Below, piece by piece: positions 8,421-61,096 of a DNA stretch of 64,000 nt. The notes beneath the pieces are model-generated. The model had not been told where the DNA came from, searched no databases, and worked only from the letters and a program-made list of their open reading frames with translations. Both the position numbers and the translations under genes were made by a program. Source of the stretch: Octopus vulgaris (lineage: Eukaryota); assembly GCA_951406725.2 (NCBI GenBank), contig OX597824.1, positions 71,982,001-72,046,000 on the forward strand, read 5' to 3'. The first letter of the stretch is position 1, and each line of letters opens with the position of its first letter.

Positions 8421-9462
8421 ATATATATATATATATATATATATATATATATATATATATATATATATATATATATATATATATAATAATATATATATAA
8501 TATATATATACATATATACATATATATATATATATATACATACATACATACATACATACATACATACATACACATACATACACATACTTACAGACATACA
8601 TATATACACTCACATACACTTAAGCAGATACACACACATACACACACACACATACATATATATATGTAAATACATACATAAATACCTACCTACCTACCTA
8701 CCTACCTACCTACCTACATACCTACATACATACATATATACATACATACATAGATGCATACACACATACATACATACATACATACATACATACATACATA
8801 CATACATACATACATACATACATACATACATACATACGTACGTACATACATACTACACTGGGGCAGGTAACACAGGGAAAAGCTTTACTTCTAACAATGT
8901 CTGACGTGATCCATCATGGTTTGCATTTCTAGGTCGAGCAACATGGTCGAGTGGTTTAACAAGGTGTCAGGTCATTCTGTAATTATAGGTCAATTCGAAC
9001 ACAACTCGTGTTTACAGGTGACTTACGTGGTTTGAAAACCAGTCTCTCTCGAATGGAATGCAGTGGCTGTCCCGACTTATTTCTAGTTGGTTACGTCCTC
9101 CCTCCCACCGTATTTGTGACTTTTTCCTCTCTCCGGCTGCCTAATCTCTCTCTCCCTCTCTCATATAAACATATGTTTACATATATATGTGTGTGTATGT
9201 GTGTGTGAATGTGTATGCGTACAAATATTTGTCTGTTTGTCTGTCTGTCTGCCTGCCCATCTCTCTCTCTCTCTCTCTCTCTCTCTCTCTCTCTCACACA
9301 CATATATATATATATATATATATATATAAAAGATATATATATATATATATATATACATGTATAGGGGGAGAATTCACGAACTCCCCTCCCCCACAAAAGA
9401 CGAAGACAGGTGGTGTAGAAAACAAACAGATGTATTAGTATAACACTCGGGAATTGAAAAAG

Positions 9463-9499
9463 TCTATAACGTTTCGAGCCTACGCTCTTCCACAGAAAG
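9463..9499 (-). ncRNA. Minimal hammerhead-like motif, CUGUGGA core
   Basis: CUUU CUGUGGA A GAGC-GUAG-GCUC GAAACGUUA; stem I imperfect. Confidence 0.4.
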
Positions 9500-9678
9500 G
9501 AATACAGAAAGAACACACACACACACACACACACACACACACACACACACACATATATATATATACATATATATAAATATAACGGGAAGGTTTACGAAAA
9601 TAAACAAAAGACGAAGGCAGGTGGAGTACAAACAAACAAATGTATTAGTATGGCGCTCAGGAATAGAAATAGAACAAG

Positions 9679-9716
9679 TCTTTTACGTTTCGAGCCTACA
9701 TCCTTCGACAGAAAGA
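9679..9716 (-). ncRNA. Minimal hammerhead-like motif, CUGUCGA core
   Basis: UCUUU CUGUCGA A GGAUGUAGGCUC GAAACGUA AAAGA; 5-bp stem I, palindromic ACGU stem III. Confidence 0.5.
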
Positions 9717-10650
9717 TACACAGAAAAAAAACAAGGAGAGAAAAAAATGCGTGTAGGAGCTAACGATCTATCACGGCGTCCTGACTGTGTGTGTATATAT
9801 ATATATATATATATATATATATATATATATATATATATATACACACATACATATATTATATAATTTCAAAGTCTTGAGAAAATTTCAAAATTTGGAGTAT
9901 TGATGAAATTTTCCAAATATGAAATTAATTGGAACAAAAATTGAAGAAATTGAAGAGTGGCAGTCAAACAGAAAAAGATCCGGAGGCTCTTCAAAAGGTC
10001 CCTCGTTCAATAAACTCGGTTTCGCTTGGTTCGATTACATGCCATTTGCCGGTAGGTGGTTGCCTATTGGCTTCGTAGTTTCGAATGGCATGGAATGGAT
10101 ACAGTTTATTTTTTTTAATGGGTTTACATATAGTCGCTCGTAAATAAATGACAAAAAAAAAAAAATAAATAAATAAAAGAATAAGAGAAAGATTATTTTG
10201 GTAAGTATACACATTTTGACGTAAGCATACTTATATAGACACGCATATATGCACCCTAGGTCTCTTGGACAGACAGACACTCACTCACGCAGTTACAGAT
10301 AAGGGTAATGGATTTTCAAGTCGATTAAGACTGTATTAGACAGCTCTCTGTTACACACACGCACGCACACGCACGTACGCACGCACGCACGCACACACAC
10401 ACACACATACACACACACACACACACACAGCTACATCTAGTATTTCTAACATAGAAATGCGTTTACAGTAATTCGGTATTATTTAGCAAAAAAAAAAAAT
10501 TGTCTGTCCCCCATCCTTGGGAAAATACCATAACAGATACCCTTTTTAGTTGCTATTGCTCAGTTATTTGTATTTAGTAATTTACATATTTCGAAATGCT
10601 GATATACATGCGTGCACACACACACACACACACACACACACACTTTAATA

Positions 10651-11936
10651 TATTAGGTTATCCCATAAATAATGCGGTTTTTTTATACTTTTATTTTTCA
10701 AAATTAAGATTAACAAACCTCTTTTCTAATCTAAAATATACTCTCCTTCATTTTCTGCAATGCTCTTCCATCTATCTTGTAGACTTGCAAGGCCCCTCTT
10801 TCAAAATTCAACTTGTCCGTGACGGAAAATACTCCTCCAGTACTGTTCTGAACTCGTCAACAGAATTCGTATTTTTTCCGTCCAGATGATTTTGACGACT
10901 TCGGAAAAAATTATAATCAGATAGGGCAATGTCCGGCGAATATGGTGGTTGGGGCATCGTTTCCTATTCAAACTGCTCCAGCCTTTGAAATGTCATCCTT
11001 GCTGTATGTGCACGAGCATTATCCTGATAGAAGAACACCTTCCATCTTGAAACCAAAGACAGTCGTTTCCCTCCTAGCGCTGATTTCAGCCGCTCAAGCT
11101 GTTCGCAGTAGATCTTATCGTTTGGTTTGGGTTTAAAAGTTCAAAGGGGACTAAACCTTTCATATTCTATCAAACAGATAACAACACCTCTCGTGAGCGA
11201 TGGCCTTCTTTAGCCTAGGGTATCGGTCTTTCTCTTTTCCCTACCTACTGTCTTCGGCGCTTGACATTTTTATAGAGAACCCATTTCTCGTCACCAGTCA
11301 CTATTCGGTCCAAAAAAAAAAAAAGGTTCATTCGTGAGACGTGACAGTAAAGAAGAGTACACATTCACTCTCTGCGTGCGATTAGACTCGGAAAGTTTGT
11401 GAGGAAGCCATTGACCCAATTTGCTGACTTTTCCGTTGGCACGCAGGTGTCGATGAATGGTTGAATGACCAAATCCAAGCGTCTCTGCTAGTTCCTCAAC
11501 AGTTACAATGGAATTTTGTTCCACCAGGGTTTGCAGACGTCCTCGTCGAGATCTACTGATCTTCCAGGACGAAGCTTGTCTTCTAGGCTGTAGTTTCCGG
11601 CTCGGAATTTCTAGAAGCACCGTTGACACTGGCTTACGCTTATTGTCTGATCCCCATATACTGCATTAATATCCCTCGCACTTTTCGTTGCGTTGTTGCT
11701 TTTATGGAACCCATAAGGCAAAATATGCCGAATATGCATGCTCCTTTGTCACTTCCATTATAGCCTTGAAAAAATAACAGTTAAAATCAAGCTGCACTCT
11801 TCAAAATTTGCACTAAGAATAAGCACAAGGTAAACTTACTGCTGCTTTTATAGGAAGTTGATGCAGTTAGTTTATCCCGTCCCCCTCTGACTTTTAGCTC
11901 ATACAATTGAAAAAAATTATTTGGGATGACCCATTA
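10651..11936 (-). mobile_element. Mariner transposon, pseudogenised
   Basis: Degenerate TIRs tattaggttatcccataaataat / attatttgggatgacccatta; motifs HSTIHRHL..GQWLPHKL and PPYSPDIALSDY. Confidence 0.9.
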
Positions 11937-12255
11937 CATACGCACGTACACATGTATGTATGTATGTATGTATGTATGTATGTATGTATGTATGTATGTA
12001 TGTATGTATGTATGTATGTATGCATGCATGCATGCATGTATGTATGTATGTATGTATGTATGTATGTATGTATGTATGTATGTATGTATGTATACAAGTT
12101 TAGTATTAACTGTCGAAAAAAAAAGTACCCAATTCCAGGGTAGAAATATTTACATTCTATTTTGATTGAGTCACCTTCTTGATACTCTGAGTTTCACCCG
12201 TATGCACATAGGCTTTTCAGGCAAGTTGTGACAGGAAAATCGCTATCATAGATCG

Positions 12256-59061: not shown

Positions 59062-59268
59062 CACTTGAGCATATCTGGTCCAAAATTTTCTACTTGTTTT
59101 ATGTTGAAACTGGTCAGATCTGGCTTCTCACGCCTACCTAAGAATGTCATTGTAAAATAAACAATCATAGCATTGGAATCTCAAAACTACAAGATAATGC
59201 ATGATTAATTCAAATCTAGGTGAATATATAAACTTTACATTTGAATGCTTAATGTGAATGCTAAAGGG
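59062..59268. mobile_element. piggyBac-like MITE
   Basis: TTAA flanks; inverted relative to the 50283 copy. Confidence 0.75.
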
Positions 59269-59782
59269 TTAATACATATATGCATGGCATCTGAGGTCAT
59301 TGTCTTCTGTTATAGCCATGGGTCAGCCAAAGCCTTATGAGTGCATTTGGCAGATGGAAACTAAAAGAAGCCCATAGTGTGTGTCCCTTTCTCTCGATAT
59401 CATGTGATGATTGTTGTAAAAGGCATCTGTACTGGTTCCACGTAAAAGGCACCTGTGCTGGTGCCATGTTAAAAGCACCCAGTCAAAGGTGCATGCACTG
59501 TGCCTTGGGAAAGGACAGAATGGCTTTGACTGGACTGTCTTTGATCATAGGTCTCTTTGATCAGAGTTGACTAAGGGCTAAGCAATAACAACAATGTAAA
59601 GATGAGAAGCTTCTTGATGGTTGTGAACCAACAAGCCAAATTCTACTTGAGAAAAGTACCAGCCAAATTTTGCTTAAATTCCACCCAGCAACCTTTAAAA
59701 AAAAAGGAAACATTTCAATACTGTAGTACTTGAAAATAAGACTGGAATACTTTTGATCATAGGTTTCATTATCTAAGTAAAG

Positions 59783-59930
59783 TGGTTGGCATTAGGAAGG
59801 GCATCCAACCATTGAAACCTTGCCAAAACAGGCAATTGGAGCCTGCTGCAGCTCTCCAGCTTGCCAGCTCCTGTCAAACCATTCAACCCATGTCAGCACG
59901 GTAAATAGATATATGATGTTGATGATGATA
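59783..59930 (+). mobile_element. SINE family C / RTE 3' tail fragment
   Basis: ggttggcattaggaagggcatcc..caacccatg..gatgatgat. Confidence 0.75.
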
Positions 59931-60002
59931 TAAACATCCATTCTTACATGCATGTTTTTATGCTGATGATGATATACACATACGTTCTTTCATGCATGGT
60001 TT

Positions 60003-60122
60003 TATGTTCTGCTTTCAAATTCTACCAAGGTTGACTTCACCTTTAATCTCTCAGGATCAATAAAATAAGTATTAGTTGAGCACTGGAGTCAATGTAATTG
60101 ACTTACCCCAACTTTCCCCCAA
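60003..60122 (+). mobile_element. SINE family B 3' part, CpG-decayed
   Basis: ttcaaattctaccaaggttgact..gagcactggagtcaatgtaattgact. Confidence 0.65.
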
Positions 60123-60274
60123 ATAGCTGTAGAGATGATATATATATATATATATATATATATATATATATATATATATAAACTGTAAAACAAGCTGGGA
60201 GAAAGAGACGGAACGAAATGAGAATTCGAAAAATCGAAAATTCAAATGAACCCGACGCGAAGCGCTGTCAGACA

Positions 60275-61096
60275 ATAGTGTAATAAATAAAATATATGCA
60301 TACATACAAACATATATGTACGTACCGACATCTACATGTATATATACATGCATATATAAATATATATACGTACAGGACACCACAAGAAGACGTAAAAATC
60401 AACAGAAACGAAAACGGAAAAGCCATTTTGTTACAACAGAAGGACAGAGACGTGGAACAAGACGAAAACGAAAACGGGAAAAACAATTATGTACAGCAGA
60501 AAAACGAAGTACAGGACATGCTGCACAAGGAAAAATCCCCTTCATCAGCTGTCGCTAGCAGACATAGCGTGTTTCGAAGGCAAGACAGAACACGTTTGGT
60601 CATGCTAGGCCTTCCTATGAGAGAATTAAAATAAGATAACCTCGTAGAGGGGTAAAACGAACAAAAAAATGTAACACAAAAAGGGACGTAACAAAGAACT
60701 GCACAATTGCTCGTTTTACCCCTCTATGAGGGTATTTTATTTTAATTCTCTCGTAGGAAGGCCTAGCATGACCAGACGTGTTCTGTCTTGCCTTCGAAAC
60801 ACGCTATGTCTGCTAGCGACAGCTGATGAAGGGGATTTTTCCTTGTGCAGCATGTCCTGTACTTCGTTTTTCTGCTGTACATAATTGTTTTTCCCATTTT
60901 CGTTTTCGTCTTGTTCCACGTCTCTGTCCTTCTGTTGTAACAAAATGGCTTTTCCGTTTTCGTTTCTGTTGATTTTTACGTCTTCTTGTGGTGTCCTGTA
61001 CGTATATATATTTATATATGCATGTATATATACATGTAGATGTCGGTACGTACATATATGTTTGTATGTATGCATATATTTTATTTATTACACTAT
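60275..61096. mobile_element. 822-bp palindromic element (386-bp arms, 50-bp spacer)
   Basis: 60275-60660 is the reverse complement of 60711-61096 with about 6 mismatches; CpG-rich; microsatellite flanks. Confidence 0.92.

What the first reader, a model, noticed from the sequence alone, without database searches (positions are those of the whole stretch)
9361..61096. Candidate system: several short, ribozyme-bearing, microsatellite-anchored retroelements that form palindromes
Seen: at least four short non-coding families, unrelated in sequence (9.4-9.8/12.3 kb, 29.0-29.3 kb, 55.8 kb, 60.3-61.1 kb), share one layout. Each has a hammerhead or hammerhead-like core and a 3' end (ribozyme strand) running into (TA)n. 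For the type I cases the junction is about 10-100 nt past the cleavage site. None shows an obvious TSD, and they occur as direct tandems or inverted pairs. Known: Penelope-like elements and non-LTR retrozymes carry minimal HHRs in terminal repeats and form tandem and inverted structures. Inference: a diversified group of non-autonomous PLE/retrozyme-like elements that prime on TA microsatellites, making self-cleaving RNAs and long dsRNA hairpins in a lineage known for heavy A-to-I editing. I cannot tell whether these families are already catalogued.
Basis: partly seen in the sequence, partly recalled or inferred. Interest (0 to 1): 0.8.

Follow-up and report, generated by a model that had tools for sequence, protein, structure and literature searches.

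The report
Scrambled hammerhead ribozyme in octopus retroelement
Most of these short repeats are ordinary ends of Penelope-like jumping genes carrying self-cutting hammerhead RNA motifs, but one family seems to carry a hammerhead whose three building blocks come in a scrambled order, so far described from environmental RNA and not, in the papers I could search, from animal chromosomes; its cutting activity is untested.

Summary
The window is Octopus DNA. The four families are real, and their hammerhead motifs exceed chance. Three (9.4/9.6/12.3 kb, 29 kb, 55.8 kb) carry type I motifs and show the published Penelope-like element (PLE) pattern: (TA)n targets, inverted 5'-truncated pairs and a tail on one arm. 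That part is known. No RT or GIY-YIG ORF links them to a parent, so 'non-autonomous' is unproven.

The surprise is the 60.3-61.1 kb family. It is not type I, II or III. It fits a non-circularly permuted, type-SGC hammerhead (Eckert 2023): stems III and I have 5 Watson-Crick pairs each and the core is intact. It matches the published descriptor except for an extra A, the PLE-type inserted base, which would have hidden it (0 of 1500 shuffled windows hit). Hundreds of related contigs in four organisms show listed changes at 0 of 39 core and stem positions against 19 of 62 neighbours, and the cleavage base is mostly C (GUC).

Against: stem II is weak with a stronger shifted register, stems I-III show no covariation, and cleavage is untested. 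The 9-12 kb family has an A6U core variant. In palindromic copies the hairpin probably silences the ribozyme. Editing was not testable.

The parts
60707..61096 (+). 60 kb family, right arm (sense on +), short 3' end without tail, running into (TA)3(TG)n
60777..60834 (+). Candidate type-SGC hammerhead, right arm. S block 60777-60787 (U16.1 60781, N17 60782); linker 60788-60791; G block 60792-60803 (GAAA 60796-60799); C block 60818-60834 (CUGAUGA 60823-60829, extra A 60830)
   Evidence: mirror pair table
60811..60852 (+). Possible stem I-stem II interaction helix (60811-60815 with 60848-60852). 4 of 5 pairs in this copy, 5 of 5 with the majority letter of related contigs
   Evidence: partner strands not phased, alternative partners exist
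60853..60860 (+). Second S-like block (U16.1 60855, GUC); gives an alternative type-GCS fit with the same G and C blocks
60992..60999 (+). Third S-like block (U16.1 60994, GUC), 101 nt before the arm end
60275..60706 (-). 60 kb family, left arm (sense on -), including the 42-nt centre, read as extra 5' sequence of this arm
60537..60594 (-). Candidate type-SGC hammerhead, left arm (U16.1 60590, N17 60589, GAAA 60575, CUGAUGA 60548)
60181..60274 (-). 94-nt 3' tail present on the left arm only, ending at (TA)n 60138-60180; multi-copy in four runs
29171..29321 (+). 29 kb family, right arm with type I hammerhead (core 29190, GAAA 29250, C17 29261; 6-bp stem II with long insert; palindromic, dimer-type stem III)
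28991..29170 (-). 29 kb family, left arm with the same hammerhead (core 29122, C17 29051) plus centre
28843..28990 (-). 148-nt extension on the left arm only, ending at (TA)n 28808-28842; tail by analogy, copy number not tested
9362..9513 (-). 9-12 kb family, 5'-truncated copy; minimal type I motif with U at position 6 (core 9495, N17 9468); stem I broken at pair 2
9582..9772 (-). 9-12 kb family, copy 2 (core 9711, N17 9684); stem II mismatch; direct tandem with the 9.4 kb copy across a microsatellite
12247..12434 (+). 9-12 kb family, solo copy (core 12317, N17 12344), ends at (TA)n 12436-12457
55849..56076 (-). 55.8 kb family, solo copy between two TA tracts (5' limit uncertain); type I hammerhead with 6-bp stem I, 4-bp stem III, U10.1-U11.1 mismatch (core 55898, A17 55860)
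28072..28598 (+).
35971..36091 (+). Context: first coding exon of a LIMCH1-like gene; the 55.8 and 60 kb elements would lie in its first intron
   Evidence: no later exon found in the window

Best explanation
These are terminal-repeat (pLTR) pieces of several Penelope-like retroelement families, either 5'-truncated copies or non-autonomous derivatives, copied into (TA)n microsatellites by a PLE RT/GIY-YIG protein encoded elsewhere.

Steps:
(1) A master copy is transcribed [inferred].
(2) The PLE protein nicks AT-rich DNA and starts reverse transcription inside the RNA at one of two sites, giving 3' ends with or without a tail [ends shown; mechanism inferred from PMC11167929].
(3) Both DNA ends are primed, and the two truncated cDNAs join head to head, giving a palindrome with a tail on one arm [structure shown; mechanism inferred].
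(4) The hammerhead trims or separates master transcripts and is not needed for insertion [inferred].

In three families the hammerhead is type I. In the 60 kb family it is a non-circularly permuted, type-SGC fold under purifying selection [fit and conservation shown; cleavage inferred]. It most likely arose inside the element by short duplications and loss of blocks, and is probably slow or protein-assisted. In palindromic copies the long hairpin masks the ribozyme [inferred].

Odds: PLE-type mobilisation about 0.85; selected SGC-class fold about 0.72; unaided in vitro cleavage about 0.5.
For: PLE pattern:
- Type I motifs 4 versus 0.05 by chance.
- Extra base between positions 9 and 10.1 and palindromic stem III, as in PMC4209133, which also reports opposite-strand pairs 100-700 bp apart.
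- TA junctions 7 of 8 versus 2.15%.
- One-sided tails. The 60 kb tail is covered by contigs in 4 of 4 runs, with a TA loose end in X4.
- (TA)n bias, inverted truncated copy and one-sided tail are described in PMC8557442. 31 recently active PLE families are reported in O. vulgaris (PMC13282606).

SGC fold:
- Best of six block orders, score 34; non-circular fits of that score in 1 of 300 shuffled windows.
- With both core motifs left in place, 15 of 20000 shuffles reach it.
- Published descriptor with the inserted base freed: both arms hit, 0 of 1500 shuffled windows.
- 513, 673, 306 and 221 contigs laid from four runs.
- Listed substitutions at 0 of 39 core/stem I-III positions versus 19 of 62 others, p=3.6e-5.
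- N17 is C in 44, 79, 87 and 68% of depth; only U or C is listed.
- Loose ends show other linker sequences between unchanged stems, and two changes on each strand of the proposed interaction helix that would compensate.
Against: - No RT/GIY-YIG parent was found, and the tails (94, 148 nt) are longer than the 30-40 bp described.
- Stem II is only G-C, G.U, G.U, G-C (-2.9 kcal/mol). A shifted register that uses G8 and A9 gives -7.5 and an upstream partner -10.4.
- The fifth base of that strand stays constant in a variant subfamily, which the active register does not explain.
- Stems I-III are invariant, so there is no covariation in them. The compensating changes come from loose ends that are not phased on one contig.
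- The 3' linker to the interaction helix is 13 nt, against about 1-5 nt in the published alignment.
- The majority change at 60523 also extends the rival GCS stem III.
- hid 4 substitution rows and 9 indel rows, needed 80% likeness, and used contigs only, which favours apparent conservation.
- No hammerhead fold is the minimum-energy structure, although these programs cannot model pseudoknots.
Confidence: 0.66

Rival explanations
1. PLE-type elements as above, but the 60 kb motif is not a working ribozyme. It is a decayed or rearranged hammerhead, or a protein-binding structure, that folds in the shifted stem II register and is conserved for another reason.
For: Shifted register -7.5 versus -2.9 kcal/mol, and other strong competing helices. 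No covariation in stems I-III. 13 more invariant bases just after stem II that the core does not need. The arm is rich in short repeats.
Against: All catalytic bases, three stems, the short linker and the spacing limits of the published descriptor fit. The only listed change inside the S block is at N17, towards C. Linker and loop positions vary.
Confidence: 0.2
2. The active form is type GCS, or several sites are used. The G and C blocks act as one catalytic core that pairs with the downstream S-like blocks (60855, 60994) instead of, or as well as, the upstream one.
For: TGT[CT]CTGT occurs 3 times per arm and only twice elsewhere on both strands of the window. All three sites pair 4-5 bp in stem I and 3-5 bp next to the core in stem III. 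GCS score 31. No substitution is listed at 60509-60522. One X4 contig shows a perfect 6-bp stem III at the second site (table 5c, read by eye).
Against: The upstream site has the best pairing (5+5 Watson-Crick). In variant loose ends from X2 the second site loses stem I while the first is kept (read by eye). The third site lies in a stretch skipped as repeat.
Confidence: 0.1
3. The palindromes are TA-targeting MITE or foldback DNA transposons that happen to contain hammerhead-like sequence.
For: Long near-perfect inverted arms flanked by TA. A TA duplication cannot be excluded inside (TA)n. True foldback elements occur in the window (30693-31337, 46256-46867).
Against: The arms are asymmetric (one-sided tails). 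The centre is simply more 5' sequence of one arm. Solo and direct-tandem copies exist in two families. No strand-switch joint at the 60 kb centre was listed in 4 runs (weak, since contigs break at palindromes). Ribozyme positions are under selection.
Confidence: 0.04
4. The elements are 3' ends of another TA- or TAA-targeting non-LTR retrotransposon, or SINE-like partners of one, not of PLEs.
For: Variable 5' truncation and microsatellite targeting are generic for target-primed insertion (established knowledge). Dong-R4 and RTE elements are active in octopus. No PLE ORF was linked.
Against: Hammerheads with the 9/10.1 insertion, dimer-type stem III, inverted truncated pairs and one-sided tails are the combination described for PLEs.
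Confidence: 0.05

Closest known systems
Type-SGC hammerhead ribozymes (HRIMA-1 and SGC variant), Eckert et al. 2023, PMC10085705
   Same: Block order S-G-C; CUGAUGA, CGAAA and UH intact; one inserted base after A9; 3-4 nt linker between the stem I and stem II strands; stems I and III of 5 bp; a candidate helix joining the far sides of stems I and II.
   Different: The published SGC sets (407 + 176 sequences) are listed as RNA from soil, spruce, sludge and freshwater, opposite hairpin ribozymes. This one is chromosomal, multi-copy animal DNA in a retroelement. The inserted base is A, not U or none, so the published patterns miss it. Stem II has two G.U pairs, the 3' linker is longer, there are two further S-like blocks, and cleavage is untested.
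Minimal hammerheads in PLE pseudo-LTRs (Cervera and de la Pena 2014, PMC4209133)
   Same: Type I order, extra base between 9 and 10.1 (9-12 kb family), G10.1-C11.1, palindromic dimer-type stem III, many unrelated families per genome, mostly solo, some opposite-strand pairs.
   Different: The 9-12 kb family has U at position 6 in 3 of 3 copies; the parts read list U3-A8 but not this. The 29 kb family has no extra base and a 40-nt stem II insert. The 55.8 kb family has a monomer-type stem III. The 60 kb family is not type I.
EN+ PLE insertion structure (Neptune, Naiad, Poseidon; Craig et al. 2021 PMC8557442; Frangieh et al. 2024 PMC11167929)
   Same: (TA)n targets with no readable TSD, 5' truncation, partial tandems, inverted truncated copy, tail at one end.
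   Different: No ORF here; tails of 94 and 148 nt instead of 30-40 bp; clade cannot be assigned.
Non-LTR retrozymes (Cervera and de la Pena 2020, PMC7229834; Li et al. 2026, bioRxiv 10.64898/2026.07.22.740005)
   Same: Short non-coding units with a hammerhead, related to PLE ends.
   Different: These are defined by head-to-tail tandems with complete type I motifs and by circular RNA. Here there are mostly solo or inverted copies; the two direct tandems are degenerate or split by microsatellite; no RNA data.

Membership tests
Type-SGC hammerhead | Blocks in 5'-3' order S, G, C | tested here: met
Type-SGC hammerhead | All conserved core bases (CUGANGA, GAAA, U16.1, H17, G10.1-C11.1) | tested here: met
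   one inserted A after A9; N17 is U here and mostly C in relatives
Type-SGC hammerhead | Stems I, II, III adjoining the core within the published length and spacing limits | tested here: met
   (III 4+1, I 5, linker 4, II 3+1, spacer 14); stem II weak. The literal published patterns give no hit only because they fix the inserted base as U or none; I treat that as a search setting, not a defining feature
Type-SGC hammerhead | [quoted passage not shown] | tested here: inconclusive
   5-bp candidate with unphased compensating changes; same strand has an upstream partner
Type-SGC hammerhead | Covariation in stems I-III | tested here: inconclusive
   no listed change in these stems in four runs: conservation, not covariation
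Type-SGC hammerhead | Site-specific self-cleavage | not testable with these tools
   needs an in vitro assay
Circularly permuted hammerhead types I/II/III (60 kb motif) | Block order CGS, GSC or SCG with three stems | tested here: not met
   no such fit at 60 kb in the six-order scan; the GSC reading breaks stem I at pair 2
PLE-type type I hammerhead (9-12, 29, 55.8 kb) | Type I order with stems I and II | tested here: met
   single copies have defects
PLE-type type I hammerhead (9-12 kb family) | Canonical A6 | tested here: not met
   U6 in 3 of 3 copies and in L001; filed as a core variant of unknown activity
Autonomous EN+ Penelope-like element | RT plus GIY-YIG ORF | tested here: not met
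   none among 193 of 207 window ORFs scanned; genome-wide link not testable. Not filed as autonomous PLEs
PLE insertion signature | Microsatellite target, inverted 5'-truncated copy, tail at one end | tested here: met
   tails longer than described
Non-LTR retrozyme | At least two consecutive tandem units with complete type I hammerheads | tested here: not met
   the 9.4 and 9.6 kb copies each have a broken stem and are split by microsatellite; the 28 kb tandem has a decayed core in unit 1
Non-LTR retrozyme | Circular RNA monomers | not testable with these tools
   only contigs were offered
MITE / TIR DNA transposon | Symmetric terminal inverted repeats at both element ends | tested here: not met
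   one-sided 94- and 148-nt extensions; the 60 kb extension is part of the family
MITE / TIR DNA transposon | Target-site duplication | tested here: inconclusive
   cannot be read inside (TA)n
Catalogued Repbase/Dfam family | Match to a library consensus | not testable with these tools
   no such library is offered

The most novel reading that the evidence does not exclude
The 60 kb family carries an active non-circularly permuted hammerhead: the first from an animal chromosome and from a retroelement, evolved independently of the environmental type-SGC RNAs, and present in hundreds of related contigs in at least four organisms. That would let the origin of a scrambled ribozyme be traced copy by copy. 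Bolder extension (about 0.12): one G+C core serves up to three substrate strands on the same RNA, SGC at 60782 and GCS at 60856 and 60995. It would cut the transcript in sequence and could release a 74-nt piece holding the core.
Probability: 0.55. Interest if true: 0.82.

Novelty: new variant of a known kind. Interest (0 to 1): 0.68.

Why it matters
Non-circular RNA permutations were first reported in 2023. Their authors left open how they evolve, noting that a simple tandem-duplication model does not explain them. A high-copy family in animal DNA, with subfamilies and leftover duplicate blocks, makes that question directly testable. It also means that ribozyme surveys of animal genomes using type I-III descriptors, or the published SGC patterns, miss a class of hits, and that PLE ends accept more ribozyme forms than recorded. 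The A6U family is a smaller lead on core tolerance. The shared TA-anchored, palindromic layout itself is ordinary PLE behaviour.

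Tried and rejected
Searches that found nothing:
- No whole genome is held, so no genome-wide clustering, TA enrichment or ORF linkage was possible.
- Rfam: nothing at gathering score, and no hammerhead in the rows shown.
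- Pattern scans for family members: 0 in viral contigs, 0 in genome contigs, 1 in metagenome contigs (L001).
- Translated searches with 60 kb frames found nothing.
- Pfam: 193 of 207 ORFs scanned; 14 microsatellite-laden ones were left out. Only mariner pieces, a sub-threshold RVT_1 fragment at 19839-20765 and weak chance hits appeared.
- No RNA holder was listed for the 60 kb stretch; this says nothing on expression.
- Earlier findings: nothing for this genome or these sequences.
- Lunse et al. (RNA Biol 14:1499) is not held and may already list the U6 variant.

Readings considered and dropped:
- Type II reading of the 60 kb motif: stem I fails.
- A type I ribozyme completed by splicing at the acceptor-like site near 60617: its cleavage site is not kept in variant loose ends (by eye).
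- A fourth 9-12 kb copy at 8284-8331: low complexity, no core.
- A hammerhead in the 58.5 kb palindrome or the 30.7/46.3 kb foldbacks: none.
- CUGAUGA at about 58968: no fit.
- Absence of a strand-switch joint is weak evidence only.
- My first non-circular reading was GCS. The unbiased scan preferred SGC, so GCS is kept as a rival.
- timed out and was rerun. The 28 kb rows used a cleavage position off by one and are not used.

Full report
Setting. A coding exon at 35971-36091 matches LIMCH1-like proteins of Octopus bimaculoides and O. sinensis (98%; 40 of 40 residues), so the window is Octopus DNA. No later exon of this gene is in the window. The 55.8 and 60 kb elements therefore probably sit in its first intron. 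No whole genome was available.

Observation. The four families are present and mutually unrelated. A type I hammerhead descriptor found 4 sites against a mean of 0.05 in 100 locally shuffled windows. The 29 kb pair has a canonical core, a 5-bp stem I, a 6-bp stem II with a long insert and a palindromic stem III that can only form as a dimer. The 55.8 kb copy has a 6-bp stem I, a 4-bp stem III and a U-U mismatch at 10.1/11.1. The 9.4, 9.6 and 12.3 kb copies share a minimal motif with U at position 6 and an extra A after A9; each copy has a broken pair.

One contig from the metagenome collection, L001, has the same U6 core with a completely different 6-bp stem I that was not part of the search pattern. 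This suggests U6 is a real natural variant. Its activity is doubtful: a natural A6C variant is slow (PMC3088659, passages). A search for 'hammerhead' with 'A6U' found 3 papers (2 listed), neither listed one about a hammerhead variant by its listing. Lunse et al. could not be read and may cover it.

Ends and layout. Seven of eight 3' ends lie within 15 nt of (TA)4 or longer, against 2.15% of background positions; the eighth has (TA)3 then (TG)n. The ends were placed by hand; of the five fixed by homology alone, four pass. Both palindromes have their 3' ends outward and an extra 148 nt (29 kb) or 94 nt (60 kb) on the left arm only. For the 60 kb family this extension is covered by contigs in 4 of 4 runs, and four X4 contigs run from it into TA, so it belongs to the element (depth is no copy number). 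The centre is further 5' sequence of the left arm. All this is the published PLE pattern: (TA)n bias with unreadable TSDs, an inverted 5'-truncated copy and a one-sided tail (PMC8557442, passages); opposite-strand hammerhead pairs and the 9/10.1 insertion (PMC4209133, parts 1-2 of 4); two internal RT start sites, cutting of both strands at AT-rich DNA and a protein-assisted hammerhead that is not needed for insertion (PMC11167929, parts 1-2 of 4). The tails here are longer than the 30-40 bp described. No RT/GIY-YIG ORF was found among 193 of 207 window ORFs, so truncated versus non-autonomous stays open. The shared 5' start of the 9.6 and 12.3 kb copies hints at a short unit for that family.

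The 60 kb motif. Its CUGAUGA lies downstream of its GAAA, and no circular order fits. A scan of all six block orders gave a type-SGC fit on both arms: stem III 60777-60781 with 60799-60803 (5 Watson-Crick pairs), N17 at 60782, stem I 60783-60787 with 60818-60822 (5 Watson-Crick pairs), a 4-nt linker, and stem II 60792-60795 with 60831-60834 (G-C, G.U, G.U, G-C) after an extra A (mirror table). Non-circular fits of this score occurred in 1 of 300 shuffled windows. With both core motifs held in place, 15 of 20000 shuffles reached it and 466 gave any three-stem fit. The published SGC patterns demand CUGAUGAG or CUGAUGAUG (supplement of PMC10085705) and give no hit. With the inserted base freed, both arms hit and 0 of 1500 shuffled windows do. 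The arms differ at 7 of 390 positions, so they count as one observation.

Related copies. From four public runs of four coded organisms, 513, 673, 306 and 221 contigs were laid on the left arm at 80% likeness or more. Listed substitutions fall on 0 of 39 core and stem I-III positions and on 19 of 62 other positions of 60519-60619 (p=3.6e-5). Four substitution rows and nine indel rows were not shown, and divergent copies are under-sampled. N17 is C in 44, 79, 87 and 68% of depth, giving the common GUC site. Position 60523 changes in 77-100% of depth, which completes a 5-bp helix between the far sides of stems I and II, the fourth helix that SGC ribozymes need (PMC10085705 section 14). Loose ends show other linker sequences between unchanged stems, and two changes on each strand of that helix that would compensate. 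They are not phased on one contig, so this is suggestive only.

Against activity. Stem II in the active register is worth -2.9 kcal/mol. A shifted register that takes up G8 and A9 gives -7.5, and an upstream partner -10.4. Stems I-III show no covariation. The linker to the interaction helix is 13 nt, longer than in the published alignment. The interaction strand has a second, upstream partner. The 60523 change also helps a GCS fold. The arm holds three S-like blocks (U16.1 at 60781, 60855, 60994), against two such motifs in the rest of the window. I read them as traces of short duplications through which a scrambled order could arise, for instance by loss of blocks from tandem strand-swapping copies (inference). 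They may also be alternative substrates.

Hairpins and editing. The 60 kb palindrome folds to about -700 kcal/mol. On either strand the antisense arm is made first, so the ribozyme arm would be paired as it emerges. Self-cleavage should be confined to solo or tandem copies (inference). Octopus has abundant predicted dsRNA and hyper-editing (PMC5625713, passages), so editing of this intronic hairpin is plausible but untested.

Novelty. Published type-SGC RNAs are listed as RNA from soil, spruce, sludge and freshwater; CSG from soil DNA; GCS from one bacterium (supplement table 2). I found no report from an animal genome in searches, nor 'octopus' or 'mollusc' in that supplement. The library lacks most subscription journals, and Repbase and Dfam could not be checked, so the family itself may be catalogued as a repeat.

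Papers seen: PMC10085705 (part 1 of 8, sections 4, 13-16, first part of 18, supplement parts 3, 4, 8, 18 of 42 and term searches); bioRxiv 10.64898/2026.07.22.740005 (part 1 of 5 and passages; supplements closed); PMC13282606 (part 1 of 3 and passages; its supplement was listed but not read and may bear on cataloguing); PMC7229834, PMC6765202, PMC13725137 and PMC12602865 (passages). The labels 'vertebrate-like' for L001 and 'RTE-like' for the fragment at 19.8-20.8 kb are my recall, from no call.

Verdict. The candidate non-circularly permuted hammerhead in the 60 kb family is a new variant of a known kind, well supported by fit and conservation but untested for cleavage. Overall interest 0.68.

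Noticed in passing
window 28072-28598: 255-bp direct tandem on (TG)n with a hammerhead-like core and palindromic AGUACU, poor stem I, decayed in unit 1; retrozyme-like layout, and anchored on TG rather than TA.
   Followed up: partly
window 58512-58854 and 15030-15182: AT-rich TA-flanked palindrome with no hammerhead; a solo arm of it lies at 15.0 kb. Possibly a further PLE end truncated before its ribozyme.
   Followed up: partly
window 30693-31337 and 46256-46867: Two copies of a symmetric foldback element with arms of about 270-300 bp and a TTAGGG-like centre; no hammerhead; a true MITE-like contrast to the ribozyme palindromes.
   Followed up: no
window 55780-55803 and 58394-58417: A shared 24-nt end running into (TA)n, head to head with the 55.8 kb element on the same TA tract; a GAAA half-core lies near 55710 with no fitting first half.
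   Followed up: partly
window 28743-28756 and 29356-29369: The same 14-nt motif, inverted, lies just outside both TA tracts of the 29 kb palindrome (2 matches, 0.09 expected). Unexplained; the left side abuts a piece matching the mariner remnant at 27271-27369.
   Followed up: partly
window 60616-60635 (minus strand): With the majority letters of related contigs this reads as a pyrimidine tract ending in CAG, a splice-acceptor-like site about 22 nt before the S block; PLE pLTR introns end near the hammerhead. The tail end near 60185 also looks acceptor-like.
   Followed up: partly
window 60524-60534 with 60610-60619: Possible 10-bp closing helix around the whole ribozyme domain, compatible with both window and majority letters.
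   Followed up: partly
L001 2460-2500 (minus strand): Minimal hammerhead with the same U6 core and its own 6-bp stem I in an unrelated, vertebrate-like contig (label recalled), so the variant may be widespread.
   Followed up: partly
window 6963-7295, 11294-11665, 18723-18959, 26984-27172, 19839-20765: Mariner transposase remnants and a 309-aa LINE RT C-terminal fragment; unrelated to the finding.
   Followed up: no
window 49668-50037: 30-bp minisatellite of 12 copies.
   Followed up: no
window 41240-41321 and 16883-16926: Two short imperfect palindromes seen in self-BLAST.
   Followed up: no
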